Counted from the stretch's first letter, positions 4,756-41,700 are shown. The stretch is DNA of 64,000 nucleotides from Hadesarchaea archaeon (GCA_029259185.1 JAPDJF010000014.1:2148-66147); one strand, 5' to 3'. Notes: generated from the letters alone by a model not told the origin. A program made the numbers and translations.

Positions 4756-4956
4756 CTAAATCGGAATCTAGAGTGAAGTGCAAAATGGCTTCAAACCCAA
4801 GCTATTTCCTGCCATGACTATTTTTCCTTCTTAATAAGCCATTGATCCTTCAACACGTTTCACCTCGGGGACAAGCCCCTTCCTTTAGGGAGGGGTAGTT
4901 GACTAGCCCGTTTTCTGAGGAAAAGCCCTTGTTCCGACCATATAAAAGCGGGCCCG

Positions 4957-5229
4957 GTGGGATTCATACTCAAATGGGTTCGGGTCCCAACTCAGGGGCG
5001 TACCGTATTAATACCATTTTGGGCAGATGACCGACGGTGGGAAGCGATGCTAAACAAACAAATCGGAATACGACTGACCCCAAGGCACTACGCTCTCGTG
5101 AGGGAAGTCGCCAAGAGGCGCGGAGAGGACGTAAGCGTTTTCGTGCGACGGTCCCTCCTGCGGGAGCTGGCCGTGCTCTCCTACCTTTCAGAGGACGAGA
5201 AGAAAGCCCTGGGGGTTCTAACGAAATGA
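4957..5229 (+). CDS. ribbon-helix-helix (CopG/Arc-like) DNA-binding protein
   Basis: 90 aa. The C-terminal segment VSVFVRRSLLRELAVLSYLSEDEKKAL is typical RHH. The gene starts inside the tRNA-3'-end-like direct repeat at 4949-4965. Confidence 0.45.
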   Translation: MGFILKWVRVPTQGRTVLIPFWADDRRWEAMLNKQIGIRLTPRHYALVREVAKRRGEDVSVFVRRSLLRELAVLSYLSEDEKKALGVLTK

Positions 5230-5660
5230 AGATTTTGGCCCCCTGGGAGGAAGTCGTGGGGGGAGCTCGAGGGGTTGAAGGAGAGGGGGAGTTCTCCACG
5301 TGGTGCTTGACGAGAGGGCGGTGGAGGTTGGTACTTCGGTCCTCCGGGAACTCGCCGGCATGGAAGGGAAGCTCACGGGGATTTTGCGCACGGACTCCGG
5401 GTTCAGGGTGAGGGAAATCAGAGCCGGAGCGGGAACTGCTCGGGGAGAAAAGGGTGAGAGGGGATTAGAGATCGCGAGGACCCTAGAGCAGAAATGGAAA
5501 GGCGAGGACGAGATCGCAACCAGAGAACTTCTTCCGCCGTGCGTGTCGTGGAGGAGGGGTGAGATCCTGAGCAGGAGGCCCACGAAGCCTGACTTCAAAC
5601 CCGAGAAATTTGTGTGCATGTGTGTGCACGACCCCTGTGACGGAAGCCAGGGGAAAAGAG

Positions 5661-5838
5661 GCAGAATTCGGCTTCTTTTCTTCCAATTTATGCAATGTGA
5701 AAGAATTCTACATGTATTTTTCTTCCATACTTCACAAATTTGCTTTCCTATACCTAAATTTGTGAAGAATTCTTCCATAGAAGAATTCTTTTCTTCCATG
5801 GAAGAATTCTACACGAATTTTGCGAGTTTTCTTCCGAA
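5661..5838. promoter_or_regulatory. operator-like repeat array upstream of the 5860 RHH gene
   Basis: Four copies of a GAAGAATTCT palindromic core (GAATTC centre). Five copies of the direct repeat TTTTCTTCCA within ~180 bp. The array lies directly upstream of the ATG at 5860. Confidence 0.45.
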
Positions 5839-5859
5839 CTGCACGCTTGGAGGGTTGGG

Positions 5860-6333
5860 ATGGGGAAGATAAAGGTAAACCACGTGATTGACGAGGAGCT
5901 CTGGAAAACCTTTAAAAAGTTCGTTTTCAGCCAAAGCGGGAAGATCCACGGTTCTTTAAGTGAGGCCGTCTCCCGGGCGCTGGCCGCCTACATGTCTTCC
6001 GGCTCGAACTCTTCCCCTGCCCACACATGCTCACACATTTCCGACCGGAAGGGGGGGAAGAAGGAAAAAACCGAGCGCATCTACCGGGAGCTCGCCGCCC
6101 ATGTGGCCCCAGGAGAAATAAGGGTGAGGAGGGAAGCCATCGAGGAGGCGATCGCGAGGGTGGTGTCGAACGATCCCCGGATGCTCCGCCAGTACCTCCA
6201 GCTACTGCAGACGCTGGGGTACATCGAGCTGGACGGGTTCGGGGTGTACAAGCTCCCCCGTGAGATCGCCCGCCTCGAAGCGGACGAAAGGCTCCGGGCG
6301 ATCCAGAAGGCAGAAGCCGCCGACGGAGCCTGA
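5860..6333 (+). CDS. CopG/RHH-like N-terminal domain protein (plasmid/virus-type regulator)
   Basis: 157 aa. The N-terminus VNHVIDEELWKTFKKFV...SLSEAVSRALAAY resembles beta-strand/helix RHH regulators. The C-terminal half is helical and uncharacterised. Confidence 0.45.
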   Translation: MGKIKVNHVIDEELWKTFKKFVFSQSGKIHGSLSEAVSRALAAYMSSGSNSSPAHTCSHISDRKGGKKEKTERIYRELAAHVAPGEIRVRREAIEEAIARVVSNDPRMLRQYLQLLQTLGYIELDGFGVYKLPREIARLEADERLRAIQKAEAADGA

Positions 6334-6892
6334 GCGTCTAGCGCATTTCCCGGGTGCTCGACTGGTATTTGCTAGGTCTTCCCCGAGTTCCGGCCTTGCG
6401 GATCCGAACCCCGCCGGACCTAGTGCCGCAACGCCTGTCCGCGATAAGCATTATTCATGTGAATATTGTTTACACCCACCGGAATGCGTGTTCAAAAAAA
6501 GGTTCTGCGGGAGGGGCTGGGGGAAAAGGATTCAATGATTACCAGTAACCAGCCGAAGAATACAAAATTTGGCGAAATCGCCAAAACTTGTAAAATCACC
6601 CCCCGCCCCACCGTTCAGCATTCTGAGATCCCGCTGGCTGGCCGAGGGGGGAGGCGATAGAAGCAATACTCACATGAGTAATGCTTCTATTCCCGATCTC
6701 CGCGTGGTCGTCCCGAAATCGGAGTACGGGCGTATCTGCGAGCGCGCGAAGGCTGGCCGAGGGGGAAAGCGATATAAGCAATATTCACATGAATAATGCT
6801 TATATCTATATCCGAAAAGATAAGCAATGTTCACATGAACAGTACTTATAAATTACATCCGAAAAAGGTAACAATATCTGAGCCAGCGGGCG

Positions 6893-7093
6893 GTGGGCAA
6901 AAAATTACAACTTTTACTCAAATTGGTAAAAGTTGTAAAATCCGGATCCGAGCCGATAGAGGAGATCGCCCAGAAACTCGGTCTAGACCTCACGCTGGCC
7001 TGGGCGATGAGACTCGACGGCTTGGACGACCTGTCCCGGCTGAGGCTCTTGAGCGAGGGGGAGGCGGAAGCTCGGCGGGATACACAAAACTGA
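6893..7093 (+). CDS. hypothetical small protein, possible HTH
   Basis: 66-aa ORF between the palindrome copies. Segment IEEIAQKLGLDLTLAWAMRL is HTH-like. Weak call. Confidence 0.2.
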   Translation: MGKKLQLLLKLVKVVKSGSEPIEEIAQKLGLDLTLAWAMRLDGLDDLSRLRLLSEGEAEARRDTQN

Positions 7094-7289
7094 GCTTCCC
7101 AAAATTTTGGGGAAGCTGAAAACCAATTCGGCTTACGTCTAAGGCCTTGGCTATCTCCTCCTGTGTCCCCTTCAAGCCCCTTTCCTGAAGGGGTTATTTC
7201 CGTTTCTCCCCACCCCGGCGGAACTATTCTCCGCCTTCGACTCCCTAGGACAGTCCCACCGAGATTTAAAGCCCCGATTCAAGCTTGAA

Positions 7290-7472
7290 GTGGTGAACGT
7301 CGAACCGGTGATAGGGAGGGAGGTCGAGATAACCTATGCTGACGGGACAAAAAAGCGCAGGGGCAGGCTCCTGAGGGCCCCTTGCGGGTACTTCAAGCTC
7401 CTGAGCCACCACCGCACCTACCTCATCGAACAAAAATCCGTAACCGAGCTGAAGTTTTTAAAGCGCTCTTAG
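7290..7472 (+). CDS. hypothetical small protein
   Basis: 60-aa ORF (MVNVEPVIGREVEITYADGTKKRRGRLL...). No motif recognised. Confidence 0.25.
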   Translation: MVNVEPVIGREVEITYADGTKKRRGRLLRAPCGYFKLLSHHRTYLIEQKSVTELKFLKRS

Positions 7473-7890
7473 ACCCACTCTTCGTTTGCTCAGGCCGCCG
7501 GGGGGAAGGCGATAGAAGCAATATTCACATGAATAATGCTTCTATCCCCGACCTTCGCGTGGTCGTCCCGAGATCTGCGAGCGCGCGAAGGCTGGCCGAG
7601 GGGGAAGACGATGGAAGCAATACTCACATGAGTAATGCTTCCATGCCCCCTTGGTGGTGATAGGGTCTTGGGGGTGGGGGGAGTTCGGTCGGGAACTTGA
7701 GGAGCGCATCCGAGCCGGATTCATCCATATAAGTAGAAAAAGAAAACTGACCGACGAGGATCGAATTGCCATTCTAGACTCATTTTTAGCGGGAAGGGGG
7801 AAGGATTTTTGATCCAAATTTTGCACGCGTAATTTGGATAGGACAGTTCTACTCCCTTTTTAAAATGGTGATCAAAAACATTCTGAGCAC

Positions 7891-9339
7891 ATGACCGATG
7901 ACTCAAGTCCCCCTCCAACCCCCTCGGAGAGGACAAAAAACGGGAATGGCGAGAAAAGTGGCATAGAGTACTTTTCCGGAGGTTCTGCGCGGGTTCCAAG
8001 GACTACCCCCGAGGCTTCCGAAGTGGCTCCAGGGGGATATACCTGCCCTGTGTGCGGGAAGAGGTTCGACCGCCTCGACCAACTGCGAGGGCACGCCGGG
8101 CGGGCCCATAGGAAACGCGTTCGGATATCCGAGGACGGCGGCATAACGCTCTTAGAACCCCGGCACGGGGGGAGGGGGGAGCTCGGTGGGTGTATCGGTA
8201 GCAGCGGGGCGCCATCGGATCTCTGGAAGCGCCCGAAGTCGGCAACTGAGGTTTTACGAGAAGTCCTGGAGGATCACGGGCTAAGGCCTGACTTCGTAGA
8301 ATACGCTTCGAAGCGCTCGGAGCGGATGGGAGGGCTGCACCCCAACGAGCTCTGGAGCCTGCTGACCGACATGGACTCGGGGGTCAAAACGAAGGCCCAC
8401 GCGCGCTACGTTGTCGACGACTACTACTTCGCCCTGCAGCAGGAGCAGGCCAAAGCTAGGGAGGCGGGTGCGCGCGCGTCCTACCCCCTGCGGATGGGGG
8501 AGGCCGAACCCTTGCCCTTTTACTCTTCCTTCCATGAGCAAACCCCGTACCCCACCTACGAGGCCCTCCCGGTGAGGAAGCAGCCCTACGAGCCCTACCC
8601 CAGAAGGGATTACGGGAGGGCCCCAACGCGAGAGGAGGTGAGGGAATGGATAACCCAAGCCCTCGAGGAGAAGCGAAAGCGCGACGAGCTCTCGGAACTC
8701 AAGGAGAAGATAGCATCGCTCGAGTCCTCGCTTCGCGCGCAGGCGCCCTCCACCGGCCTGACCCGGGAGGAGCTCCAGCAGGCCCTGGAGGCGCACCGTC
8801 GGGATGAGGAAGCCAGGCTGATGCGCGAGCGCTTGGAGATGGAGCGCGAGCTTCGAAAAGTCGAGCGGGAGGAGCTCCTGAAGCGCGTGGAGGACCTCGC
8901 GAAGCGGGTGGAGGAGGGCCGGAGCGTCCACATCCCCCCTGCCCAATATTCGGACTCCAAGATCCAGTTCGCCGATACCATAGCTAGAGGGCTGATTCCC
9001 GAGCTGGGGAGGCGCATGCCCGTCAAGTGGGTGATCGAGGCCATCCCCACGCTGACCGGGGAGCAGAGGAGCCCCCCGCCCATAGCACCTCCAAGCGGGA
9101 AATACAAGATCGAGGACTTCGTGTCGCCCGAGTACGTGGTGGAGAATTGCCCTAACTGCGGGGCCGAAGTCACCATGAGAGACCACGCGTGCCCGAGGTG
9201 TGGCGTCCCCCTGCCACGACATCCCTCCCCACGCGTAACCGGTGCAGAGCCTATAACCCCCGTTGTCAAGGAATTGCGAGGGGAGGAACGGGTGAAGCTG
9301 GTGAGGAAAGAGGAGGGCCTTTCGAAACACCCGATATGA
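7891..9339 (+). CDS. zinc-finger / coiled-coil protein, unknown function
   Basis: 482 aa. N-terminal C2H2-like finger (YTCPVCGKRFDRLDQLRGHAGRAH). Long charged coiled-coil in the middle (ELSELKEKIASLESSLRAQ...RERLEMERELRKVEREELLKRVEDL). C-terminal zinc ribbon (CPNCGAEV...CPRCG). Confidence 0.5.
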   Translation: MTDDSSPPPTPSERTKNGNGEKSGIEYFSGGSARVPRTTPEASEVAPGGYTCPVCGKRFDRLDQLRGHAGRAHRKRVRISEDGGITLLEPRHGGRGELGGCIGSSGAPSDLWKRPKSATEVLREVLEDHGLRPDFVEYASKRSERMGGLHPNELWSLLTDMDSGVKTKAHARYVVDDYYFALQQEQAKAREAGARASYPLRMGEAEPLPFYSSFHEQTPYPTYEALPVRKQPYEPYPRRDYGRAPTREEVREWITQALEEKRKRDELSELKEKIASLESSLRAQAPSTGLTREELQQALEAHRRDEEARLMRERLEMERELRKVEREELLKRVEDLAKRVEEGRSVHIPPAQYSDSKIQFADTIARGLIPELGRRMPVKWVIEAIPTLTGEQRSPPPIAPPSGKYKIEDFVSPEYVVENCPNCGAEVTMRDHACPRCGVPLPRHPSPRVTGAEPITPVVKELRGEERVKLVRKEEGLSKHPI

Positions 9340-10685: not shown

Positions 10686-11147
10686 CTATGCTTTTTTCTT
10701 ACATTCCGGATGTTCACCCGTTTTGATGAAGTGTTTATAATGCTCAAGCCATTCCGGCTTCTTTGGGGCCCTTTGAACGAATTCCACGAGTTTCTTCAAC
10801 CTGTTCATGGTCTTCCGAGTCACGACGTGCTCGATTTTGCATGCATCGATCTCCGCGATCCTCCTATCCATACCCAAAAGCTCAAGAAAACTTACCAAAA
10901 CCATATGTTTACTACTGACTTCCTTTGCAATTCGCATCCCCCGTGGCGTGAGTGAGACGATGCCGTACTTCTTATGTTTCACGAGCCCCTCTTTGCTGAG
11001 TTTTTCCAGCATCTCTGTGACGCTTGGGGGCTTGTGTCCCAAAAAGGAGGCGATATCCGATGTCTTGACTCTATCCTTCTTTTTCGCAATAAAGTATATA
11101 GCTTCCAGATAATCTTCAACGCTTGAGCTAAACTTTTTCTTGTCCAT
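10686..11147 (-). CDS. DtxR/MntR/IdeR-family metal-dependent transcriptional repressor
   Basis: 153 aa. The N-terminus SVEDYLEAIYFIAKKKDRVKTSDIASFLGHKPPSVTEMLEKLSKEGLV is the canonical DtxR HTH and dimerisation region. Adjacent to the feo genes. Confidence 0.85.
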   Translation of the reverse strand: MDKKKFSSSVEDYLEAIYFIAKKKDRVKTSDIASFLGHKPPSVTEMLEKLSKEGLVKHKKYGIVSLTPRGMRIAKEVSSKHMVLVSFLELLGMDRRIAEIDACKIEHVVTRKTMNRLKKLVEFVQRAPKKPEWLEHYKHFIKTGEHPECKKKA

Positions 11148-11155
11148 AACTCGAC

Positions 11156-11377
11156 CTATCTAATTACCTCCACAATTATTTTTTGTGCTATCCCACGACC
11201 CATAGCGATTTGACCCCCATTACTTTCCACGACAACAGGGCCTCTTGAGGACGAAATCATTCGCAGCCAGCTGCCCTCTTTAATTCCTCGGAGCGCTAAC
11301 TTCTGTCTCATGCCGTGTCCTCCGGCTATTTGAACCACAACGCCGATTTCCCCAGGTCTTAAACTCGTCAGCAGCAT
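11156..11377 (-). CDS. feoA: FeoA-like small SH3-domain protein
   Basis: 73 aa. GEIGVVVQI..G......LALRGIKEGSWLRMI matches the FeoA fold signature. Confidence 0.65.
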   Translation of the reverse strand: MLLTSLRPGEIGVVVQIAGGHGMRQKLALRGIKEGSWLRMISSSRGPVVVESNGGQIAMGRGIAQKIIVEVIR

Positions 11378-11496
11378 GTTTGCACTCTTAGTTTTAGACT
11401 TAGTACAAGTACCTTAAAAATGTTTGTTAGGTTAACCGAAAAATTTAAAAGGGATGTGTTTTAATGCTTTAGGAATGCCTAAAAAGGAGTTGACGC

Positions 11497-11724
11497 ATGG
11501 AGAAGAAATTATCAGATATGAAGCCCGGTGAAAAGGGTCGAATAATTGAGATAGACTCGTCGATTCAAGCAAGCATCGCAGGGATGGGTATCAGAATTGG
11601 CGAGGAATTGAAGGTAGCCGCGGAGCAGCCAATCAGAGGCCCTATTGTAATCGTAGTAAAGGGGAGGGAGACATCGCTTGGAAGGGGACTTGCTAAGTCG
11701 ATCCTAGTGGAGTGTGAAGAATGA
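11497..11724 (+). CDS. feoA: FeoA ferrous iron transport protein A
   Basis: 75 aa. Contains KPGEKGRIIEID and LKVAAEQPIRGPIVIVVKGRETSLGRGLAKSILV. Overlaps the feoB start (ATGA). Confidence 0.75.
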   Translation: MEKKLSDMKPGEKGRIIEIDSSIQASIAGMGIRIGEELKVAAEQPIRGPIVIVVKGRETSLGRGLAKSILVECEE

Positions 11725-13490: not shown

Positions 13491-13935
13491 TGTGATGAAG
13501 TATAAGCTCGGCTCCGTGTACTTCGCAATCTTGGGCGCGATAACATTAGTGTTCGGCGCATGGGAGTTTGGTGCCACGCTTGGCGCACCCGTAACGACGG
13601 AAATTGGGTGGCTTGAGATACCCGCTGGAACGTGGGAGGAGGTGTGGCGGGGGGTCGTCATCTTCCTCGCCGGGGCGCTCATCGTAGTGGGGGCCTTCAA
13701 GCTCCGGGACATCCACGGGCTCGGCAAAGCTGTTTTGGGCTCGATCATGCTTTGGATAGTTGCCGGATGCGACATATTTGGGAGGATACTGGACTCGATC
13801 GCGAGCAATGAGGCTACATGGATCAACTCCTTGGATGAGTTCTTAGCGACTTACGGCCCTCCCTATAACCCAGCACTGTGGTTGCTCCCGTTCTCGCTGG
13901 TGATTATTTACTTCATCCACGCTAGGAGGGAATGA
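13483..13935 (+). CDS. hypothetical membrane protein (feo-linked)
   Basis: 150 aa with 4 predicted TM segments. Overlaps the feoB stop, which suggests the same transcript. Confidence 0.45.
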   Translation: MSNVMKYKLGSVYFAILGAITLVFGAWEFGATLGAPVTTEIGWLEIPAGTWEEVWRGVVIFLAGALIVVGAFKLRDIHGLGKAVLGSIMLWIVAGCDIFGRILDSIASNEATWINSLDEFLATYGPPYNPALWLLPFSLVIIYFIHARRE

Positions 13936-13938
13936 AAA

Positions 13939-14736: not shown

Positions 14737-14749
14737 GTCAGGGAAAGCA

Positions 14750-19720: not shown

Positions 19721-19733
19721 GCAAACACGATTC

Positions 19734-26069: not shown

Positions 26070-26091
26070 CGACCGTACGAAGCTCGTCGAT

Positions 26092-29666: not shown

Positions 29667-29689
29667 GTTAAGGTTGTTGGAGGGTATAT

Positions 29690-30757: not shown

Positions 30758-30760
30758 CTC

Positions 30761-34300: not shown

Positions 34301-34403
34301 CCTCGTGGACGAGCTTCACCGCGCCTTCGTGGAGGTCGTGGAGGACAGACTGATAAAAGCCGGCAGGCCACTCAAGCAGGGAGAGGAGGCTGCGGAGGAA
34401 TGA
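31377..34403 (+). CDS. large N6-adenine DNA methyltransferase (type IIG/III Mod / PglX-like, gamma-class)
   Basis: 1008 aa. Motif I VLDPAVGSGGFL at about aa 385. Motif IV VVMNPPYV at about aa 555. Long N-terminal (~380 aa) and C-terminal (~450 aa) regions of unknown function. Confidence 0.85.
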   Translation: MRFDTAFWVDRFRDLGYPLRHLGLDVGYLRGQGILPRELEVSSAKLLYRDDYVEVVVLELERLAPRGLCSRVARGWKGRRLRRPLLVFTDGVDSYAVIVPGPGVGGEVKALRLHGELYRTDREVLESLRFPGDPEKLREAYDAVFFPYEKVRDEFFQGYRALFERIIDSVKKLLGQDAQSYAQRFLGRLMFLYFLQRKGWLKGDRKFIDKIGDFRELNRLFYESLNKEDGEEGLPFLNGSLFEREPYMTDKMEAGLFPVMDPIFKEAREFFNRYNFTVDETSPMEVEVSIDPLLLGTVLENMLPEHERGERGTFYTPVDEIGFMCRRAISVYLGLGDRVEAKSDRGTEFVDGLSEFVERLKREKSEEKVREFKEKLLSLRVLDPAVGSGGFLVVMMQTLVQLIHEAEGAVGWKTDPEELKRRILPNLFGFDIEPEAVEIARLRLWLSLIIDQKYPLPLPNLDMNIMEIHDALSRKWGYTTKLDELEHQASLRDKLEWLREKYLTEHDPRKRQHLRKEINELQEVLMGKIDPKGIQIEFYLPERAADIVVMNPPYVRQEKVPLKKKQQYINDYRLDRTSDLYAYFMVRSLELLKENGVAAIISSDKWLETNYGRTLQKRLKPHLVAVYGQRHRSFTADVNTVITVLTKKRRDAKEPVQFVYLESYTEGVVRNYKAIKRGELTPGKWYYLRAPKIFEEVLLPKLTHRLEEFAEIKRGFTTGANEFFYLKDVSHLYEADRLANPKKFREWGVTAKNEGALRRQGLIYVENEGGERFLLERDAVRPILRSPRQIRSYGVEEPETLCFWVRGRPGPFASRYIEWGRRKGFYKRPTCRARDPWYSLHEFQEAKIFPPMSWGDVMYISYSPEPYVCDARLYGLYPKKPGLENTLACYLNSTLFFLTVELYCRRLGGGATDIKVEDYEQMPVPDLAKTRIDFDFSKFAREPLKYMKEVEQADRKELDRAVLRAMGFKEKELEGLVDELHRAFVEVVEDRLIKAGRPLKQGEEAAEE

Positions 34404-37400
34404 CTAGGATCGTGGACAACAAGGGGGAGACCCTCGCGTCCGTCCTGAACAGGGAGTTCTCCGAGGTGAGCGAGGTCGCGATCGCCTCCGCCTACTTCAA
34501 CATCCGGGGGTACGGTGACATAGAGAGAGGGCTCGGGGACAAGCCGATGCGCCTCCTCCTGGGACGCGAGCCAACCGAGAGCGTGAAGTGGGAGGAGGAG
34601 ATACTCCGGGAGCTCGAGGAGAGCGAGGACGACCTGGACTACTTCCTCCTCCTGCAGCGGGCGATAGAGTACTTCCGGAGCGACAGGCGCCAGGTCAGGA
34701 TCATGGGGGGACCCTTCTTCCACGGCAAGGCCTTCATCGGGGTGCATCCGAACACGTTCTCCGTGAGGCGCGGCGTGGGGGTGGTCGGCTCCAGCAACTT
34801 CACCCACGGGGGCCTCGTGGCCAACCGGGAACTCAACATGGTCAACACCGACCGCGAAGTCGTGCGGGAGCTCGCGGGGTGGTTCGAGGAGCAGTGGCTG
34901 AACTCCCGCGACTACAAGGAGGAGTTCCTCTCCATGCTCAGCAACTACGCAATCACGAGGAGTCCGCTGGAGGTCGTGGCGAAGGCCCTCTACGAGACCT
35001 ACAAGGAGAGCCTGGGCGAGAGGAGGGCGGAGATCTTCAAAGGCATGTACCCCCACCAGCAGCTCTCGTACATAAACGCGGTGGAGAAGCTCGAGAGGTA
35101 CGGGGGCGTGCTGATCGCCGACTCGACGGGACTCGGCAAGACCGCGACCGCACTGAACCTGGCCCACACCGCGATGAGGGACGGAAAGAGGGTACTGCTC
35201 GTGGCCCCCAAGAACGTCCTCGAGACCACGTGGAGGGACGAGATGAGGAGAACCCTCGGGACCAGGGAGTTTCTGGAGACCCTCTCCTCCGAGATGCTCT
35301 CCCAGAACCCGGCGTGCGTGGAGGAGTACGCGGGCGAGAACGGCGTCCAGCTCGTGATCGTCGACGAGGCCCACTACTTCAGGAGGCAGTCCACCAACAG
35401 GTACCAGGCCCTCAGGGAGCTGATAACCAAGAACGGTGCATCGGTGGTGCTCATAACGGCCACCCCCGTGAACACGAGCCTCATGGACCTCTACTCCCTC
35501 CTCGCCCTCTACCTCCCCGAAGACTGCGTGCTCGACCTCTGCGGGATGACCCTCAGGGGCTACTTCACCTCCAACCAGGCTAGGTGGCTCAAGGGTGAGC
35601 CCGTGAACATGGACGAGGTGCTGAGGAGGTTCATCGTGAGGCACTCGAGGGAGCTCGCGAGGGCCATGGACAAGGAGGGGAGGATAAGGTTTCCGGAGAG
35701 GGAGCTGGACAAGATCGAGTACCCGGTGGGCGTCGACCTGTGGGCGGTTCACGAGGTGCTGTCCCGGATGAACTTCGCGTTCTACGACCTCTCCGTGGAG
35801 AGGTTCTCCGGCGACCTCAGGATGCCCGACGGAACCCCCCTCTCGAGAGCCGCGAGTGAGGAGCAGGTGGAGAACCTGAAGGATCTCGTCAAGACGATAG
35901 TGGTCATAGGGCTGTTCAAGCGACTCGAGAGCAGCCTGACCGCCTTCAGGGAGTCCCTCCTGCGGACGCGGAGGTACGTGCGAGTCGCGCGCGAGTACGC
36001 CGTGAAGATGCAGTACTTCGTGCCCCCGAGGGTGAAGGGCGACGTGCTGTCCATTCTCGGGGAGGACGATGAGCTGGAGGAGCTGCCCGACCCCGGGGAC
36101 CTCCTCTCCAAGCTGAGGGGGGAGGATGCCTTGGAGAAGTGCAAGCTGGACCGGCGCGATGCCGAGGAGTTCGCGTCGAGGTGCCTGGAGGACGAACGGG
36201 ACATCGACGAGCTGCTGAAGATGCTCCCGAGCGAGGACGAGAAGTACCGCGCGCTTGAGGAGAAGGTCGGGGAGATGCTGGAGAGGGTGAGCGCGGGCGA
36301 ACCGGGCGTGAAGAACGGCATCATAATATTCACCCAGTACGCCGACACCGCGCGCTACCTGTACGAAATGCTCAGGGCGAGGTTCGGCCGCGCCATGCTG
36401 GTGACGGGGGGAGGGGGGTACGGCGGCGACGGTAGGTCGTGCACCGAGGCCGAGGCTGTCAAGGATTTCCAGAGGCACGGTGGGATACTGATCAGCACGG
36501 ATGTCCTGAGCGCGGGGCAGAACCTTCAGAACGCCCAGTTCGTCGTGAACTACGACTTCCCGTGGAACCCCGTGATCCTGATCCAAAGAGCCGGGAGGGT
36601 CGACAGGATAGGTTCGCCCTACGACAGGATATACCTGGTGAACGTGCTCCCCAAGAGGGGCGACCCGGGGGATCGCCAGAGTCTGGAGTACTTCTTGGGG
36701 CTCATGGAGAGGCTCTACAGGAGGCTCGAGATGATCAGGGAGACCGTGGGGATAGACGCCTCGACCTTGGGTGAGGAGGCCGCCCCCAAGGACTTCAGCC
36801 TACAGGCGAGGATCGCGCGCAACGACCGAGGGGTCCTCAGCCTCCTGGAGAAGAAGATCGAGCAGTTCACGAGGGACCCGCTGGACGTGCTGGCCAAGAT
36901 ACTGAGGGAGAAGGGTCTCGAGTGGATCGAGCGGATCCCGACCGGAATAGGGGCCATAAAGCACGGTAAGTTCAACGGCCTGTTCGTGCTCTTCACCGAC
37001 GGGAAGAATCACTACTGGAGGCTCCACGATCACGACGCCAACTCCACGATCACCTCGATTACCGAGATAACCGACATCCTCATGGAGGGGGAGGTGGCGA
37101 ACAGCGGCGAGAAAATCCCCTACGAGTCCCTGATAGGGAAGCTGAAGGGGGCCAAGGATGCGCTGAGGCGGGAGCTGGAGAGGGCGAGCCTGAGGGAGGT
37201 CACGAGGGGGGAGGCCCCGGAGAAAGTGACGAGAACCATCGCGGAGATCTACGATGCCCTGGCCAAAGCGGGCCCCGAGGGGGAGAAGCTCGCCGCGATG
37301 TTCAGGGGGCTGGCCAACCGGAGTACGGTCGTGGAGGGGCTGAAGAGGGCGAAGAGCGAGGGACGGTTGCTCGAGAAGGCGCGGGAGATACTCCCCCCGC

Positions 37401-37486
37401 TCGCGTCCGCGCCACCCCGAGGAGAGAGCGACGAGTCCATCCCGAAGCTGCGCAGGATGTGCTGGTGCCTCATAACGAAATCGTGA
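34400..37486 (+). CDS. PLD-family nuclease domain fused to SNF2/DEAD-like superfamily-2 helicase
   Basis: 1028 aa. The N-terminal PLD region has an HGKAFIG-like HxK motif and GSSNFTHGGL. Helicase motif I ADSTGLGKT, motif II LVIVDEAHYF, motif III LITATPV and motif VI QRAGRVDRIGS. The start overlaps the methyltransferase stop (ATGA). Confidence 0.85.
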   Translation: MTRIVDNKGETLASVLNREFSEVSEVAIASAYFNIRGYGDIERGLGDKPMRLLLGREPTESVKWEEEILRELEESEDDLDYFLLLQRAIEYFRSDRRQVRIMGGPFFHGKAFIGVHPNTFSVRRGVGVVGSSNFTHGGLVANRELNMVNTDREVVRELAGWFEEQWLNSRDYKEEFLSMLSNYAITRSPLEVVAKALYETYKESLGERRAEIFKGMYPHQQLSYINAVEKLERYGGVLIADSTGLGKTATALNLAHTAMRDGKRVLLVAPKNVLETTWRDEMRRTLGTREFLETLSSEMLSQNPACVEEYAGENGVQLVIVDEAHYFRRQSTNRYQALRELITKNGASVVLITATPVNTSLMDLYSLLALYLPEDCVLDLCGMTLRGYFTSNQARWLKGEPVNMDEVLRRFIVRHSRELARAMDKEGRIRFPERELDKIEYPVGVDLWAVHEVLSRMNFAFYDLSVERFSGDLRMPDGTPLSRAASEEQVENLKDLVKTIVVIGLFKRLESSLTAFRESLLRTRRYVRVAREYAVKMQYFVPPRVKGDVLSILGEDDELEELPDPGDLLSKLRGEDALEKCKLDRRDAEEFASRCLEDERDIDELLKMLPSEDEKYRALEEKVGEMLERVSAGEPGVKNGIIIFTQYADTARYLYEMLRARFGRAMLVTGGGGYGGDGRSCTEAEAVKDFQRHGGILISTDVLSAGQNLQNAQFVVNYDFPWNPVILIQRAGRVDRIGSPYDRIYLVNVLPKRGDPGDRQSLEYFLGLMERLYRRLEMIRETVGIDASTLGEEAAPKDFSLQARIARNDRGVLSLLEKKIEQFTRDPLDVLAKILREKGLEWIERIPTGIGAIKHGKFNGLFVLFTDGKNHYWRLHDHDANSTITSITEITDILMEGEVANSGEKIPYESLIGKLKGAKDALRRELERASLREVTRGEAPEKVTRTIAEIYDALAKAGPEGEKLAAMFRGLANRSTVVEGLKRAKSEGRLLEKAREILPPLASAPPRGESDESIPKLRRMCWCLITKS

Positions 37487-38683
37487 GTGATTTTTCTGTT
37501 AGCTGAGAGGGGATTCTTGCCAACTCTGGAGGATGTAAAGAACGAGGAATTGGGAAAGCTGGCGAAGAGGCTGAAGGGGGGCTCGGAGAAGGAGACCCTC
37601 GCCAACATCTTGGAGTGGCAGGAGAGGAATATCATGTGGGCCGCTGATAGGTGGTACACGTACCGTCTGCTCCAGACAATCGTTGCTTTCACAATACTAC
37701 TACTTATAGTTCCTTTCTATTGGATGAATTTGATGAACCCCGTACTGTGCTGGGGAGGTATTTTAGTGGGAATTGTGACTGTGGTGTCTTTAAACCCGGC
37801 TTATCCACTACCTGCACTCACCCCCCTCACGGTCTACGCTATCCTCTGGCTTTCTCTTAACTCTGGGCCGATTATAACCTCGGTCTTAATCCTGTTAGCC
37901 CTCCTCTTGGGAGGCATGATAGTGGTGGTGATCTACCTGTTAATGAAGTATAAGGACTTTTACAGGGAATTCGGGTTTGGGTTTCTTGCCGACCTCTTCC
38001 GCCCCAGCCTGCCCGTGGAGAAGATCCTGAGGTACCGGTTGGGGGTGTGCAGGGACTACGCGAAGCTCACGGCGGCCCTGCTCTTCAACTTGTATCCGGG
38101 TTCTAAGGTCTGTTTCCTTTCTTTGGGAGGGCACGTTGCCGCGGCCACCAGAATTAAGGGTAAGTACTATGTCCTCGATCAGCGGTTGCCAGTTTCAACG
38201 ATAAACAGGTGGTTGATGAGATGGGATAAAAGGAAAGTAAAAGTTATCGTTTCTAAATTGAAGTGGGGTCGAAGAGGAGAAGTAGTCGACGTTGAAAATT
38301 GGAAGAAAAAATATAATGCGAAACGGGAAAAGTCGTCCTCGCTGAACACTAAGGTACTAACGGAAAAAGTTGTAAAGGCACTTAGGACAAAACAGACCCC
38401 GCGGGAATGCTATCCGGACGTTGAGATGCGTCTGAAAAGCTTCGCCCTCTACTACGAGGACGACGGCGTGGTGGAGTACTCGATGGTAAGGGCGATTAAG
38501 AACAGGGTCGAGGGCGAGCTGTGTGGTGACGTTGGCAGGATCTCCAGGCTTGAGGTCTGCAAGGATGGGCGAGACAATAAGGACTTGATCGCGAAGGTTT
38601 GGGTAGGAGACGACTCTATTTCCATAAGCCGGTTTGGTGATGTGACAAAACAAAAGTTTACAAAATGTAGAAATGTTAATTGA
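37487..38683 (+). CDS. polytopic membrane protein with transglutaminase-like cysteine protease domain
   Basis: 398 aa with about 5 TM helices. The segments LGVCRDYAKLTAALLF and GGHVAAATRIKGKYYVLDQ are spaced like a TGase Cys-His-Asp triad. Starts 1 nt after the helicase stop. Confidence 0.55.
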   Translation: MIFLLAERGFLPTLEDVKNEELGKLAKRLKGGSEKETLANILEWQERNIMWAADRWYTYRLLQTIVAFTILLLIVPFYWMNLMNPVLCWGGILVGIVTVVSLNPAYPLPALTPLTVYAILWLSLNSGPIITSVLILLALLLGGMIVVVIYLLMKYKDFYREFGFGFLADLFRPSLPVEKILRYRLGVCRDYAKLTAALLFNLYPGSKVCFLSLGGHVAAATRIKGKYYVLDQRLPVSTINRWLMRWDKRKVKVIVSKLKWGRRGEVVDVENWKKKYNAKREKSSSLNTKVLTEKVVKALRTKQTPRECYPDVEMRLKSFALYYEDDGVVEYSMVRAIKNRVEGELCGDVGRISRLEVCKDGRDNKDLIAKVWVGDDSISISRFGDVTKQKFTKCRNVN

Positions 38684-38700: not shown

Positions 38701-39203
38701 TAAGTTTCTTTAAATTCCTGATGAAACAGTTTTCATACAAATTTTTGAAAAAATTAAATTTGAACACTGGAGCGGATAGCAGTCCGGATTCATTTCCCTG
38801 AATCCAGAAGGGGCGGGTTTCTCCTCCACGAATATCCCCACCCCGATGGACCCTTCTCCCGCGAGGTGCTCAACCGCTTGATCGAACGCCACGCGGGGGT
38901 CCAAACCCACCCTCCTCAGCTACCGGAAGCAAATGCTGGTGTGGGGGCTCATCGAGGGGGCCTCGCACGGAGGGGTCAGATGGGTAAACGGACGGTGAGT
39001 ATCGTCTTGGAGGACGAGCGCGTCTGGGAGGGCTTCTGCAGGCTTGTGGAGGCGAAATACGGCCGGAAGTGGAAGTTCTTGGGGAGGGGCGCGTTGGTCG
39101 CGTGGGATTTGAACCCCACAGTCTTGGCTTTCGCTTGAGGAGCGATTTTATCGTTTTTACCAATTTTAGCAAATCCGATAATTTCCCAGTTGGACCGCCC
39201 GTA

Positions 39204-39757
39204 AGCATTACCCATGTGGGTATTGCTTACCTTTTCGGGGATGTAAGCAATGTTCACGTGAACATCGCTTACATCGTCTTCCCCCTCGGCCGGCCTTCGC
39301 GCGCTCGCAGATCTCGGGACGACCACGCGGAGATCGGGGATGGAAGCATTATTCATGTGAATATTGCTTCCATCGCCTTCCCTCACCCATCACTGTGAAA
39401 AAATCAGATGGGGGGTTTGTGAATTTTACAAATCGTGGTAGGGGGAATAATGGCAACTAAGAGTTTAGTACCGTTCTCTTTCGCCCTAGGCCGGGCCTAG
39501 CGGGCTTCCGGGAAACCCAAGTTCTTCTTTCCAGGTTTTTCCTAGGCCCCCCAAGGGCCTTCTAGGAAGGTGGGGGTCTTGGCCCTCGTGGATCCGGGCC
39601 TTTGGGGTTAGGGGGGAAATTATAAGCATTACTCATGTGAGTATTGCTTATCTTTTCGGATGTAAGCATTGTTCACGTGAACATTGTTACGTCCGGACGT
39701 AACTTATAGAGACGTAGGAGAGACGGAAGCATTGCTCATGTGAACATTGCTTCCATC
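39204..39757. repeat. Array B of the same ~30-bp near-palindromic repeat family, inverted relative to array A
   Basis: Six copies at ~39204-39233, 39243-39272, 39340-39370, 39622-39655, 39659-39690 and 39723-39757. The composite unit 39243-39370 is the reverse complement of the array-A unit. The ORFs 38976-39386 and 39069-39398 are translations of the repeat. Confidence 0.8.
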
Positions 39758-39877: not shown

Positions 39878-39925
39878 TAATTCTATCCCTTTTAGAAAAC
39901 TAATTCTATCCCTTTTAGAAAAAGT
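39878..39925. repeat. tandem duplication of 24 bp (CTAATTCTATCCCTTTTAGAAAA x2)
   Basis: Exact direct tandem repeat in an AT-rich region. Confidence 0.6.
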
Positions 39926-40176
39926 ATTGGCTTTGCAGAGAGAAAATAAGAAGGCGCTGGGGCAGGATAAAATGAACCGAGCGAGCGACGGAGAGATCGA
40001 CTTCGTGCGATGTTGGCTTTCCTGCTCTCAAAGAGGACTCGCACCTAGTTGGGCGTGCATACTTCGGTCTCGGCTCCTTCCCGATATTTTACTGGTAAAT
40101 TAGTGCCGAAATCCCGTCCTCATCGCGCTCTTCGAGGATGAGGCCTACCGCAGGAAGGAAATGATAGTGAGGAAGC

Positions 40177-41520
40177 TTAGACACGCTCACAGTCGGGAGA
40201 TGGCCTGCGCACCACGATCCTCCCGCTGTTGAGCTCCCGGACGATCTCCCAGCCCTCGTTCAGGTACCGCACGAGCTCCTCCTCCCCGATGAGCTTGCTC
40301 TCGTACCTCGCGCAGTTTCCGTTGCAGTCTTCCCGGAACCTCGCTGGGGAGATCCTGAGCTTCCTTATTTCTGCCTGGAGGGCCTCGATCTCCTCGCCGA
40401 ACTCCGGCTCGCGCCCAAGTTCCTTCTGCTTCTCGATGCGGACCTTCAGGGGGTCTATTCCAAACGTCTCCGCGACCCTGCGCATCGCCTCGAGCGCCAT
40501 CTCCTCCTTCGAGGGCGCTTTTTCGGACTCAGCAGTCTGGAGGTACTCCTGCGCCCTCCGGTACGCCTCGCGCATGCTCTCCACCACGTCCTCGGGGAGC
40601 CTGCACTTGTTGGTGGTGTACCGCGCCTCGATGTCCCCCTTGTGGCCCATCCAGAAGGTTCGGTAGTCGCGGAGCACGAGCCCCTTGGACTCCGCGAGCA
40701 TGAGCTGGGTGTCGAAGTAGGAGCGCAGCACGTAGGGGCGCCAGGGGAACCCCGCATTCCTGATCGCTGACCTTATCGCGTCGCCCACGTTGGCGGCCGT
40801 GATGAACCCGATCCCCCTAAATCTAGAGGTGATCAGGGGAGACTTGGCGGTGAGCACCTCGCCCCTCCTCATTCGCTCCTCCAGGTAATCCTTTAAGTAC
40901 CCGCACCCCTCCTCGCTCAAAAACGTGAAGTAGCGGTGCCTGGCCTTGCTGAGCTCGCGCCTGACTATTACCATCGCCGGGACTCGCTCGAACTCCACCT
41001 CCCCACCCCTGACCCTGAGTTCGGGCAGGTCCCCGAGCCTCAGCCCGTCGTCCCCCCTGTAGTTGCCAAGGGTCTCGATGCGCAGCCCGGAGTGGGCCAC
41101 GAGCACCGAGGCCGCCCTCGCCTTCTTGTCCCCCGAGAGGAATATGCGTCTCAGCTCTTCCTTGGTGGGAACGCGCTCCTCCGCGAGCGAGGGCGTGTCC
41201 CTGGCCCCCCTTATCTTTATCTTCCCCACGACCGTCCGGTTGTGGTGGGCGAGCCATGACTTCACCGCCTTGAGCGTGGACTCGATGTAGCTCCCCGCCC
41301 TCCCCTTCTCCTCCTCGGCCGAAACGAAGTCGAGCAGTAGGTTGTAGAGCTTCTTCCCCCCCACCCTCCAGAGCTCCTTGGGGGTGAGGCCCACGGACCT
41401 GCAGAAGCTCCCAAGCCTGCGCAGGTAGACGTCCGCCGTGACCTCAGACCCCCTAGCCACGTTCCTGTACCAGCGCTCGACCTCCGGGTCCTCGAGCAGT
41501 TGCCTGTGGGTCCCACGCAT
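40177..41520 (-). CDS. int: tyrosine recombinase / integrase (XerC/D-SSV-like)
   Basis: The C-terminal catalytic domain contains HSGLRIETL, LRSYFDT and WMGHKGDIEARYT (R..K..H..R/H..Y). The start was set at the ATG at 41520. The 55 upstream codons in the track simply read through the tRNA. Confidence 0.85.
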   Translation of the reverse strand: MRGTHRQLLEDPEVERWYRNVARGSEVTADVYLRRLGSFCRSVGLTPKELWRVGGKKLYNLLLDFVSAEEEKGRAGSYIESTLKAVKSWLAHHNRTVVGKIKIRGARDTPSLAEERVPTKEELRRIFLSGDKKARAASVLVAHSGLRIETLGNYRGDDGLRLGDLPELRVRGGEVEFERVPAMVIVRRELSKARHRYFTFLSEEGCGYLKDYLEERMRRGEVLTAKSPLITSRFRGIGFITAANVGDAIRSAIRNAGFPWRPYVLRSYFDTQLMLAESKGLVLRDYRTFWMGHKGDIEARYTTNKCRLPEDVVESMREAYRRAQEYLQTAESEKAPSKEEMALEAMRRVAETFGIDPLKVRIEKQKELGREPEFGEEIEALQAEIRKLRISPARFREDCNGNCARYESKLIGEEELVRYLNEGWEIVRELNSGRIVVRRPSPDCERV

Positions 41521-41542
41521 TCGATGATGGGTAGAGCGGGAT

Positions 41543-41556
41543 TCTATAAAAGCGTT
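41543..41556 (-). promoter_or_regulatory. TATA-box (TTTATAG) for the integrase gene
   Basis: On the minus strand, CTTTTATAGAA lies about 27 bp upstream of the integrase ATG, between the gene and the tRNA. Confidence 0.4.
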
Positions 41557-41574
41557 TCGAACCCAAAATGGTAC

Positions 41575-41700
41575 GGGCCCGGTGGGATTCGAACCCACGA
41601 CCGTCCGGTCTCGCCACGAGTTAAGAGCTTCATCCGGTCCTCCCGACCGACGGATGCTCCACCAGACTGAGCCTCCCGGTAGCATGAGCTACTTACGGGC
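41575..41700 (-). tRNA. intron-containing tRNA, isotype unresolved; target-like site next to the integrase
   Basis: On the minus strand: acceptor GGGCCCG/CGGGCCC, discriminator G and T-arm GTGGGTTCGAATCCCAC. A D-arm-like GCTCAGTCTGGTGGAGC is present. Total length is about 126 nt, which implies one or two introns. A 5-bp hairpin GTAGC-TCAT-GCTAC is present. I could not fold the anticodon arm unambiguously. Confidence 0.55.

What the first reader, a model, noticed from the sequence alone, without database searches (positions are those of the whole stretch)
4949..41590. Possible ~36.6-kb tRNA-integrated element: integrase abutting an intron-containing tRNA, with a 17-bp direct repeat of the tRNA 3' end far upstream
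A tyrosine recombinase gene (40177-41520, minus) has its own TATA box and starts about 55 bp from the 3' end of a minus-strand tRNA (41575-41700). This is the classic attL-int arrangement. The 17-mer CGGGCCCGGTGGGATTC, which forms the tRNA 3' end and T-arm on the plus strand at 41574-41590, recurs identically at 4949-4965. That second copy lies immediately downstream of tRNA-Cys and exactly at the start of an RHH gene. Unexpectedly, the preceding TATAAAAGCG is also shared (4941-4950 versus 41545-41554), with 19 nt deleted in between. The interval contains plasmid/virus-type RHH regulators, the two inverted repeat arrays, an AT-rich island and the dcm/ATPase/methyltransferase/helicase defence island. 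Against a single 36-kb element, the interval also contains genes that look like core genes (feoAB, RNase J-like, nth). The true structure may therefore be two or more nested or adjacent elements, or a decayed tandem insertion.
Basis: partly seen in the sequence, partly recalled or inferred. Interest (0 to 1): 0.65.

Follow-up and report, generated by a model that had tools for sequence, protein, structure and literature searches.

The report
tRNA-Lys-integrated 36.6-kb archaeal genomic island
A 36.6-kb block of foreign DNA carrying iron-uptake and anti-virus genes sits in the end of a lysine tRNA gene of an uncultured Hadarchaeota archaeon; a 99.7%-identical sister strain lacks the block precisely, so it is a real and probably recently mobile element of an ordinary, well-known kind.

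Summary

- **Repeat.** The 17-mer occurs exactly twice, at 4949-4965 and 41574-41590.
- **tRNA.** The right copy is positions 57-73 of a tRNA-Lys(CUU) gene (41574-41702, minus strand). The gene has three introns, and ARAGORN and Rfam miss it.
- **Integrase.** A 447-aa tyrosine recombinase starts 53 nt from the tRNA end. The fold matches XerA, Cre and lambda Int, and the R..YxxR..Y signature is present.
- **Empty site.** A sister-strain contig that is 99.7% identical in the flanks joins window 4965 directly to 41574 through a single 17-mer.
- **Mixed sample.** In one sequencing run, unitigs break exactly at the edge of the core.
- **Family.** The integrase belongs to a large archaeal family. 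At least 55 of 80 related genome loci have a same-strand tRNA 45-120 bp upstream, covering 13 amino-acid specificities.
- **Conserved box.** A T-arm-like box, GGGTTCRRAACC, follows the tRNA across the family. In the window it flanks the core on both element ends, in inverted orientation.
- **Core-like genes.** The genes that looked like core genes are cargo: a Feo cluster, a divergent beta-CASP nuclease, and an nth-like glycosylase inside a dcm/HerA cluster.
- **Class.** No replication, transfer or virion genes were recognised, so I call it a cryptic integrated element or genomic island.

It is a new member of a known kind.

The parts
4949..4965 (+). int-distal att core: the displaced copy of the tRNA-Lys 3' end, 17 bp
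   Evidence: Exact repeat. It is the junction base-for-base in the empty-site contig L007.
4976..4987 (+). Inverted copy of the family box GGGTTCRRAACC (GGGTTCGGGTCC, 10/12), 10 nt inside the element's far end
   Evidence: The chance of a match of at least 10/12 in a 32-nt window is about 0.7%.
5012..5023 (+). TACCATTTTGGG, an inverted-repeat partner of 41562-41573. Putative accessory or arm site of attP.
   Evidence: One copy per strand in the window.
5047..5229 (+). 60-aa RHH protein (NikA-like). Candidate regulator or excision factor. It would be divergent from int across attP in the circular form.
   Evidence: Pfam PF21983, 1.2e-5, which is just below the curated cutoff. Gene called in public assemblies. 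The proposed role is inferred.
5860..6333 (+). 157-aa protein with an RHH-like N-terminus and a wHTH-like C-terminus (judged by eye)
   Evidence: Translation. No Pfam, PHROGs or NCBIfam hit.
6446..7640 (+). Left array of 6 imperfect palindromes AAGCAWTRYTCAYRTGARYAWTGCTT
   Evidence: 12 copies in the window against 0 expected.
7891..9339 (+). 482-aa protein with a C2H2 finger, a coiled coil and a zinc ribbon. Function unknown.
10686..15010 (.). Iron-uptake cargo: DtxR-like repressor (10686-11147, -), FeoA (11156-11377, -), FeoA (11497-11724, +), FeoB (11721-13490, +), two unknown ORFs, and a FeoC-like wHTH (14750-15010, +)
15122..15694 (+). SAM-dependent methyltransferase (cargo)
19100..23400 (.). 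AT-rich island (GC 37-45%) of ORFs with no detectable family. Possible secondary acquisition.
   Evidence: No flanking repeats found.
23790..30769 (-). Co-oriented gene run: dcm C5-methylase (29690-30769), HerA-type ATPase (28092-29666), 669-aa wHTH protein (26092-28101), HhH-GPD glycosylase (25446-26069), beta-CASP nuclease (23790-25178)
31377..38683 (+). Type IIG-like methyltransferase (31377-34403), HKD(PLD)-SNF2 helicase (34400-37486), transglutaminase-like protein (37487-38683)
   Evidence: The same methylase and helicase pair sits next to a same-family integrase in L036.
38980..39138 (+). 52-aa RHH-like ORF preceding the right array
   Evidence: Read from the sequence. 92% conserved in metagenome contig L097. 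No family hit.
39203..39752 (+). Right array of 6 palindromes, inverted relative to the left array (146-nt arms 7503-7648 and 39237-39382, 90% complementary)
40177..41520 (-). Tyrosine integrase, 447 aa, classical (non-splitting) type with R147..K192..Y263xxR266..H293..Y301
   Evidence: Fold search, phrog_1, invariant columns, family context.
41545..41554 (-). Putative TATA box of int (CGCTTTTATA on the minus strand)
   Evidence: Sequence. A TTTATA-type motif follows the box at the same place in related loci. Not tested.
41553..41564 (-). Family box GGGTTCGAAACG (11/12), 9 nt after the tRNA end
41574..41590 (+). int-proximal att core, equal to tRNA-Lys positions 57-73
   Evidence: Unitig break in SRR22064148 exactly at 41574.
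41574..41702 (-). tRNA-Lys(CUU) gene with three introns (21, 22 and 12 nt). This is the integration target.
   Evidence: Bulge-helix-bulge motifs for introns 1 and 2 were read by eye.

Best explanation
The interval 4949-41590 is one integrated mobile element: a cryptic integrated element, or genomic island, in a Hadarchaeota chromosome.

**Proposed mechanism.**
1. The element's tyrosine integrase recombined a 17-bp core in a circular attP with the identical 3' terminal 17 bp (positions 57-73) of the tRNA-Lys(CUU) gene.
2. The element supplies the same 17 bp, so the tRNA gene stays intact next to int.
3. The displaced copy marks the far end at 4949-4965.
4. In attP the core would be flanked on both sides, at 8-10 nt, by inverted copies of a T-arm-like box, GGGTTCRRAACC. 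This box is conserved next to the tRNA throughout the integrase family. I infer that it is the integrase binding site.
5. int and a small RHH gene would be transcribed divergently from attP. The RHH protein is a candidate regulator or directionality factor.

**Cargo.** The element carries an iron-uptake cluster and two restriction-modification or helicase-type defence clusters. Nothing recognisable for replication, transfer or virions was found.

**Shown.** The repeat, the tRNA, the recombinase fold, the empty site, the family-wide tRNA adjacency and box, and the cargo annotations.

**Inferred.** The circular intermediate, which protein binds the box, the role of the RHH, and current activity.
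For: - The 17-mer is unique to the two ends.
- The right copy is tRNA-Lys positions 57-73, and the spliced gene is a canonical tRNA.
- The empty site in L007 is 99.7% identical in the flanks and has a single core copy as its junction. L007's right end diverges at the same point as L001 from the same sample, so L007 is not chimeric.
- Both occupied junctions are crossed by independent assemblies: L002, L003, L094 and L011.
- In SRR22064148, unitig L004 ends at 41574 and unitig L095 starts at 41603. The 30-nt overlap is what a k=31 graph branch at the core edge would give (k=31 is my assumption for Logan unitigs).
- The integrase model matches XerA, IntI, Cre, XerD and lambda Int at probability 1.0. 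R, K, YxxR, H and Y are invariant in 23 homologues. There is a phrog_1 integrase hit.
- At least 55 of 80 related genome loci have a same-strand tRNA ending 45-120 bp upstream of int, covering 13 amino-acid specificities. Most of the remaining loci show a T-arm there.
- The box is present at 10/12 or better, 6-9 nt after the tRNA, in 76% of 37 loci against 0.7% of background windows. It is present on both element ends in the window.
- The exact integrase and RHH proteins are absent from the sister-strain sample.
Against: - No attP junction or circular form was found, so excision is not shown directly.
- Composition is mosaic: GC ranges from 37% to 64%, with an AT-rich island. This argues for stepwise accretion of the content.
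- No replication, conjugation or capsid gene was recognised, so how the element moves between cells is unknown.
- The empty site rests on one 7.5-kb ENA contig plus a graph-break inference.
- The integrase model has low confidence around the catalytic C-terminal segment (pLDDT below 50 at residues 276-308).
Confidence: 0.85

Rival explanations
1. Composite origin. A small integrative backbone (int, attP, RHH genes and palindrome arrays, about 5 kb once circularised) acquired the Feo cluster, the AT-rich island and the defence clusters by later insertions, or by fusion of two related elements. On this view the 36.6 kb is an accreted island, not one ancestral replicon. This concerns the element's history and is compatible with it now moving as one unit.
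For: - GC is mosaic and there is an AT-rich island at 19.1-23.4 kb.
- There are two RHH-plus-palindrome modules in inverted orientation near the two ends.
- L097 shares the RHH and array module at 92% identity but has different neighbouring sequence.
- L036 shares only the methylase and helicase pair.
- Only the integrase is conserved among 80 related loci.
Against: - No internal att-like site better than 13/17, and no second integrase or transposase was recognised.
- No repeats flank the AT-rich island.
- The sister strain lacks everything at once.
Confidence: 0.5
2. The sister strain lost a native chromosomal segment by recombination between two fortuitous or tRNA-derived 17-mers. On this view the interval is not a mobile element, and the integrase belongs to a small decayed element only.
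For: The interval contains housekeeping-looking functions: Feo, an nth-like glycosylase and a beta-CASP nuclease. No mobility genes other than int were found.
Against: - The repeat is exactly the tRNA 3' end next to an integrase of a tRNA-targeting family.
- The far end carries the family-specific box in inverted orientation, plus a 12-bp inverted repeat with the int-side arm.
- 17 bp is too short for efficient homologous recombination (general knowledge).
- The housekeeping-looking genes are divergent or sit within defence and regulated-cargo clusters.
Confidence: 0.04
3. It is a provirus or an integrative-conjugative element whose structural or transfer genes are too divergent to recognise.
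For: - About a third of the ORFs have no detectable family.
- A HerA/FtsK-type ATPase is present, with a weak PHROG terminase-like P-loop match.
- Archaeal virus proteins are often unrecognisable (general knowledge).
Against: - No capsid, portal, terminase or VirB4-type match.
- The integrase family has no hit in 50,697 phage records, 72,556 plasmid records or IMG/VR.
- The HerA protein matches defence-type HerA models and is flanked by dcm and a nuclease.
Confidence: 0.1

Closest known systems
Cryptic integrated elements (CIE) and genomic islands of archaea, as catalogued for Thaumarchaeota (Krupovic et al. 2019, PMC6563490)
   Same: - A tyrosine integrase is the only conserved gene.
- Integration is into the 3' part of a tRNA gene, including intron-containing tRNAs.
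- The att direct repeats are short. The median there is 17 bp, and this one is 17 bp.
- The size falls within their 2.6-98 kb range.
- The cargo is defence and metabolic genes, with no virus or plasmid hallmark genes.
   Different: - The host phylum is Hadarchaeota.
- The element carries two inverted arrays of palindromes with RHH genes.
- A T-arm-like box flanks the core. I did not find this described in the papers I read.
pNOB8-type (class II, 'classical') archaeal integrases (She et al. 2002/2004, as reviewed in PMC8371274)
   Same: - The gene stays intact after integration, and att lies outside the ORF.
- The catalytic signature is R..YxxR..Y.
- The target is a tRNA 3' end, following the lambda paradigm.
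   Different: - The att core is 17 bp, against 40-50 bp for Sulfolobales pNOB8-type elements (PMC8371274).
- There is no Pfam PF00589 hit at E<=0.01 for this protein.
- It has an extra conserved C-terminal region of about 120 aa.
- Sequence relationship to pNOB8 Int itself was not tested.
Bacterial tRNA-integrated genomic islands (Islander-type; Williams 2002; PMC4383910)
   Same: The integrase abuts the regenerated tRNA gene. The displaced 3' fragment marks the other end. The cargo is made of adaptive and defence genes.
   Different: - The host is an archaeon.
- The tRNA has three introns.
- The integrase family is restricted to archaeal MAGs in my searches, except for two loci labelled Kazan and Chloroflexia bacteria (L066, L080).

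Membership tests
Tyrosine recombinase superfamily | Two-domain fold: core-binding domain plus catalytic domain | tested here: met
   The AlphaFold model (pLDDT 66.8) matches XerA, IntI, Cre, XerD, lambda Int and Tn1549 Int at probability 1.0 and E down to 1.8e-6. TM-scores are low (0.25-0.33).
Tyrosine recombinase superfamily | Catalytic residues R-K-H/Y-R-H/W-Y | tested here: met
   R147, K192, Y263, R266, H293 and Y301 are invariant in 23 homologues. Their assignment to catalytic roles is by motif position and was read by eye. The model is poor at residues 276-308.
Tyrosine recombinase superfamily | Sequence match to curated models (Pfam PF00589, NCBIfam) or to solved structures | tested here: not met
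   No Pfam, NCBIfam or PDB sequence hit for this protein or for the family profile. Some homologues carry a precomputed PF00589 hit. phrog_1 matches at 1.3e-5.
SSV-type ('suicidal', class I) archaeal integrases | att site inside the int ORF, so that integration splits int into two fragments | tested here: not met
   int is intact (447 aa, full-length alignment to its homologues). The core lies 53 nt upstream of the ATG.
pNOB8-type / classical (class II) archaeal integrases | Intact int after integration, and the R..YxxR..Y signature | tested here: met
   The signature definition is taken from PMC8371274. Sequence clustering with pNOB8 Int was not tested.
tRNA-integrated mobile element (integrated MGE) | Direct repeat of the tRNA 3' part at both ends, with an intact tRNA at one end | tested here: met
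tRNA-integrated mobile element (integrated MGE) | Empty site in a related genome with a single att copy | tested here: met
   L007.
tRNA-integrated mobile element (integrated MGE) | Excised circular form (attP junction) | tested here: not met
   No exact attP junction in IMG/VR or JGI metagenome contigs. The source samples' reads could not be searched, so this is not evidence of absence.
Provirus | Capsid, portal, terminase or other virion genes | tested here: not met
   PHROGs and Pfam on about 35 ORFs found only a generic P-loop match of HerA to a terminase PHROG. The integrase family is absent from the phage and IMG/VR collections.
Integrative-conjugative element | VirB4/TraG-type transfer ATPases and mating-pore genes | tested here: not met
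   Only a HerA-type ATPase, whose best matches are defence HerA models.
Archaeal intron-containing tRNA | Bulge-helix-bulge motif at the splice sites, and a canonical cloverleaf after splicing | tested here: met
   The spliced sequence is called tRNA-Lys(ctt). Introns 1 and 2 show 3-nt bulges separated by a 4-bp helix (CCCG/CGGG and CATC/GATG), read by eye. Intron 3 (12 nt) fits only a relaxed motif.

The most novel reading that the evidence does not exclude
The integrase family is about 55-60% identical across Bathyarchaeia, Hadarchaeota, Nitrososphaeria, Thermoplasmata and Asgard archaea, yet sits beside tRNAs of 13 amino-acid specificities. It may recognise an invariant T-arm-like box, GGGTTCRRAACC, present both in the tRNA T-arm and in element-borne copies flanking the core. 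The choice of tRNA would then be set only by the short DNA core carried in attP. That would make it a naturally retargetable tRNA-site integrase, in which changing about 17 bp of attP switches the target.
Probability: 0.2. Interest if true: 0.6.

Novelty: new member of a known kind. Interest (0 to 1): 0.4.

Why it matters
- **A documented case in Hadarchaeota.** It is a precisely delimited, apparently recently mobile integrative element in Hadarchaeota. My literature search found only one paper mentioning integrated elements in that phylum.
- **Strain variation.** About 36 kb of iron-uptake and defence genes can differ between strains that are 99.7% identical.
- **A marker for element discovery.** The work defines a large, very conserved archaeal integrase family that standard domain models miss. 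Its constant tRNA-then-box-then-promoter-then-int layout could be used to find and delimit integrated elements in archaeal MAGs.
- **An annotation gap.** A three-intron tRNA was invisible to ARAGORN and Rfam, so tRNA-based island finders would miss this site.

Tried and rejected
- **Inversion between two elements.** I first suspected two related elements with an inversion between them, as in the Thermococcales 'flipping chromosomes' case. The reasons were a tRNA-3'-like sequence on the + strand at 4975-5027 and the inverted palindrome arrays. The empty site and the family box explain the left-end sequence as the other arm of attP, so this was dropped.\n- **SSV-type split integrase.** The mechanical ORF 40177-41685 reads through the tRNA, which suggested a split int. 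This was rejected: the N-terminus aligns full-length from M at 41520.\n- **Brute-force intron removal.** Running ARAGORN over all single deletions gave many spurious calls. The solution came from reading the bulge-helix-bulge motifs by hand and was then verified.\n- **attP junction searches.** IMG/VR and JGI metagenome contigs gave nothing.\n- **Integrase against other collections.** Phages, plasmids, IMG/VR and PDB sequences gave nothing.\n- **attR in related loci.** A search within 6 kb downstream found none, so those elements are presumably larger.\n- **Relic integrase in the left chromosomal flank.** I looked for one to explain the shared TATAAAAGCG and found nothing significant.\n- **Left-flank look-up.** A look-up of a 49-aa flank ORF, meant to retrieve left-junction unitigs from SRR22064148, returned only one ENA contig.\n- **Casposon-like insert in the sister strain.** Its visible ends are not terminal inverted repeats.

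Full report
**1. The observation**

The 17-mer CGGGCCCGGTGGGATTC is present exactly at 4949-4965 and 41574-41590 on the + strand. No other match exists at up to 2 mismatches, and 0.02 matches are expected by chance. A looser scan finds nothing better than 13/17 elsewhere, which is chance level, and nothing on the opposite strand. TATAAAAGCG is also exact at 4941-4950 and 41545-41554. These are its only two exact copies in the window.

**2. The tRNA**

ARAGORN, with or without its intron mode, and Rfam call no tRNA at 41575-41700. Reading the minus strand shows a tRNA interrupted three times.

| Intron | Window coordinates | Length | tRNA position |
|---|---|---|---|
| 1 | 41673-41693 | 21 nt | 9/10 |
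| 2 | 41629-41650 | 22 nt | 30/31 |
| 3 | 41609-41620 | 12 nt | 38/39 |

Introns 1 and 2 sit in textbook bulge-helix-bulge motifs.
- Intron 1: helix GGG/CTC, central 4-bp helix CCCG/CGGG, 3-nt bulges TA|A and AG|G.
- Intron 2: helix GAG/CTC, central helix CATC/GATG, bulges CG|T and AA|G.
- Intron 3 fits only a relaxed motif.

These motif readings are my own, made directly from the sequence. Removing the three introns gives a 74-nt sequence that ARAGORN calls tRNA-Lys(ctt) with a perfect cloverleaf. The gene spans 41574-41702 (-). The 17-mer is tRNA positions 57-73, that is, part of the T-loop, the 3' T-stem, the 3' acceptor strand and the discriminator base.

**3. The integrase**

ORF 40177-41520 (-) encodes 447 aa and has no Pfam or NCBIfam hit. 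A family profile has no sequence relative among solved structures. It does hit phrog_1, annotated as integrase, at 1.3e-5.

An AlphaFold model built on 23 homologues (pLDDT 66.8) matches XerA, IntI, Cre, XerD, lambda Int and Tn1549 Int at Foldseek probability 1.0. In the alignment, R147, K192, Y263, R266, H293 and Y301 are invariant. This is the R..YxxR..Y signature given for pNOB8-type, or 'classical', archaeal integrases in the review PMC8371274.

The gene is intact and the core lies 53 nt upstream of its ATG. It is therefore not an SSV-type split integrase.

**4. The decisive comparison**

The window matches ENA contig ERZ25515786 NODE_4 (234.9 kb), 100% over the right-hand 20.8 kb examined, with 17 differences confined to 3879-4078. 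The exact ETF-beta protein to the right of the tRNA, and an exact protein to the left of tRNA-Cys, are also found in another sample, ERZ25515408.

Contig L007 from that sample (7,533 bp) aligns to window 1-4965 at 99.7% identity. It then continues through one copy of the 17-mer directly into window 41574-42227. That is an empty site, and the 36.6 kb between the repeats is absent.

L007 then diverges at 42220-42227. L001, from the same sample, diverges at exactly the same place when approached from the other side. L007 is therefore consistent with a real strain and not a chimera.

Several other contigs support the picture.
- The occupied right junction is crossed by ENA contigs L002 and L003 and by Logan contig L094. 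The occupied left junction is crossed by L011.
- In run SRR22064148, unitig L004 ends at 41574 and unitig L095 begins at 41603. The 30-nt overlap is what a k=31 assembly-graph branch at the edge of the core would produce (k=31 is my assumption for Logan unitigs). It implies two junction variants in that sample.
- The exact integrase and RHH proteins occur only in element-bearing samples.
- The 90%-identity clusters of FeoB and the beta-CASP protein contain no member from the sister sample.

**5. The integrase family**

More than 3,600 homologues were found. The best 120 are 55-71% identical, and the named ones are labelled 'site-specific integrase' in Bathyarchaeia, Freyarchaeota, Nitrososphaerota and Aenigmatarchaeota.

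In one-genome-per-species contigs, 138 loci encode a relative. They come from Bathyarchaeia, Hadarchaeota, Nitrososphaeria, Thermoplasmata, Methanomassiliicoccales, Hodarchaeaceae and Methanomethylicota.

Of the 80 loci fetched, at least 55 have a same-strand tRNA ending 45-120 bp upstream of int. These tRNAs cover 13 amino-acid specificities: Ser, Leu, Pro, Ala, Met, Arg, Ile, Gln, Trp, Val, Lys, Gly and one SeC call, which is doubtful. Most of the remaining loci show a T-arm at the same place. The arrangement of tRNA, short spacer and int is therefore a property of the family.

Only the integrase is conserved among these loci. The neighbouring genes vary. One Bathyarchaeia locus, L036, shares the IIG-like methylase and the HKD-SNF2 helicase, at 52% and 58% identity. 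The family is absent from 50,697 phage records, 72,556 plasmid records and IMG/VR.

**6. A conserved box at the junction**

The spacers between tRNA and int share a T-arm-like box, GGGTTCRRAACC, followed by a TTTATA-type motif. The box is present at 10/12 or better, 6-9 nt after the annotated tRNA end, in 76% of 37 loci. The figure for random 32-nt windows is 0.7%.

The window has the box on the int side (GGGTTCGAAACG, 41553-41564, 11/12). It also has the box in inverted orientation just inside the far end (GGGTTCGGGTCC, 4976-4987, 10/12). In addition, TACCATTTTGGG at 5012 and its complement at 41562 form a unique 12-bp inverted pair.

Joined through the core, the two ends reconstruct an attP with this layout: inverted box, 10 nt, 17-bp core, 9 nt, box. 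Finding the family's box at the far end is independent evidence that 4949-4965 is a genuine att and the true end of this integrase's element.

TATAAAAG directly abuts the core in the empty site too, so the left copy is chromosomal. Why the same 10-mer also lies in the int promoter region remains unexplained. The similarity does not extend further, and I found no integrase relic in the flank.

**7. Content of the element**

| Region | Content |
|---|---|
| 5047-6333 | RHH (NikA-like) and an RHH/wHTH-like protein |
| 6446-7640 and 39203-39752 | Two arrays of six imperfect palindromes, mutually inverted, each preceded by an RHH-type ORF |
| 7891-9339 | Zinc-ribbon and coiled-coil protein |
| 10686-15010 | DtxR-like repressor, two FeoA, FeoB, FeoC-like wHTH |
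| 15122-15694 | SAM methyltransferase |
| 19.1-23.4 kb | AT-rich island of unknown ORFs |
| 23790-30769 (-) | dcm, HerA, wHTH protein, HhH-GPD glycosylase, beta-CASP nuclease |
| 31377-38683 (+) | IIG-like methylase, HKD-SNF2 helicase, transglutaminase-like protein |

The 'RNase J-like' protein scores 83 bits against a cutoff of 400, so it is not the housekeeping enzyme. From general knowledge, an nth-like glycosylase near a C5-methylase is a known association in archaeal plasmids (Mig.Mth on pFV1). I did not test that link here.

No replication, conjugation or virion gene was recognised.

The palindrome motif is absent from the other 80 integrase loci. A JGI metagenome contig, L097, is 92% identical to 39051-39271 and then diverges. 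The RHH and array module therefore recurs with other cargo.

**8. Interpretation**

The best explanation is a tRNA-Lys-integrated cryptic element, or genomic island, delimited by a 17-bp att. It was inserted, and in some lineage possibly excised, by its classical-type tyrosine integrase. This matches the class described for Thaumarchaeota, where the median att length is also 17 bp (PMC6563490).

The content is probably accreted, because composition is mosaic and modules are shared with other elements. Even so, the interval behaves as one unit. The organism is assigned to Hadarchaeota only from the name attached to a FeoB fragment that is at least 90% identical. FeoB is itself carried on the element, so this is weak evidence for the host.

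**9. Verdict**

The element is a new member of a known kind and of moderate interest. The most novel open point is whether the conserved T-arm-like box lets one integrase family be retargeted to any tRNA by changing only the core.

Noticed in passing
window 42220-42227; L001 10937-20789; L005; L007 7489-7533: The sister strain (ERZ25515408, also Logan SRR24791474) diverges from the window about 520 bp to the right of tRNA-Lys, inside a 120-aa ORF. There it carries HNH, a family-B DNA polymerase (PF03175), Cas1, a dcm methylase and an HhH-GPD glycosylase, which is a casposon-like insert. The two visible ends are not obvious inverted repeats.
   Followed up: partly
window 6446-7640 and 39203-39752: There are twelve imperfect palindromes, AAGCAWTRYTCAYRTGARYAWTGCTT, in two mutually inverted arrays (146-nt arms, 90% complementary). 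The Y and R positions co-vary so that the palindrome is kept. Each array follows an RHH-type ORF. In the circular form the arrays would bracket int, attP and the RHH gene. Their function is unknown; operator, iteron and centromere are all possible.
   Followed up: partly
L097 1-350 (JGI Ga0116201_101151): This metagenome contig is 92% identical to window 39051-39271 (the end of the 52-aa RHH ORF and the first palindromes). It then has unrelated sequence, so the RHH and array module occurs with other cargo.
   Followed up: partly
L036 8432-13166: A Bathyarchaeia locus with a same-family integrase carries the same IIG-like methylase (52% identity) and HKD-SNF2 helicase (58% identity) as window 31377-37486. 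In L036 the pair has the opposite orientation relative to int.
   Followed up: no
window 48506-50535: An Orc1/Cdc6 gene (49324-50535) has an intergenic region of about 800 bp beside it, which is a likely replication origin. It lies only about 7 kb from the integration site. The element and the sister strain's casposon-like insert both sit near it.
   Followed up: no
L079 2298-2375 and 5872-5925: Next to this integrase there is only a 3' fragment of tRNA-Arg plus the box. The complete tRNA-Arg lies 3.5 kb upstream without a box. This suggests a second insertion into the same att, or a tandem array.
   Followed up: no
window 40177-40500 (integrase residues ~405-447): The integrase family has a conserved C-terminal domain of about 45 aa, rich in beta strands (invariant-like W424, pLDDT about 80), after a variable linker. 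XerA and Cre have no such domain. It is a candidate extra DNA-binding module.
   Followed up: no
window 3879-4078 and 4860-4892: A 200-bp stretch differs by clustered substitutions and indels between otherwise identical assemblies. The empty-site strain also has 65-bp and 14-bp insertions between tRNA-Cys and the att site.
   Followed up: no
window 1135-2204: A nucleotidyltransferase (MNT) and HEPN gene pair, a toxin-antitoxin-like module, lies between the ribosomal-protein/RNA polymerase D cluster and tRNA-Cys.
   Followed up: no
window 59852-59955 (-): With introns allowed, ARAGORN calls a tRNA-Leu(taa) with a 14-nt intron. Default ARAGORN and Rfam miss it. tRNA annotation in this genome is generally incomplete without intron-aware tools.
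   Followed up: no
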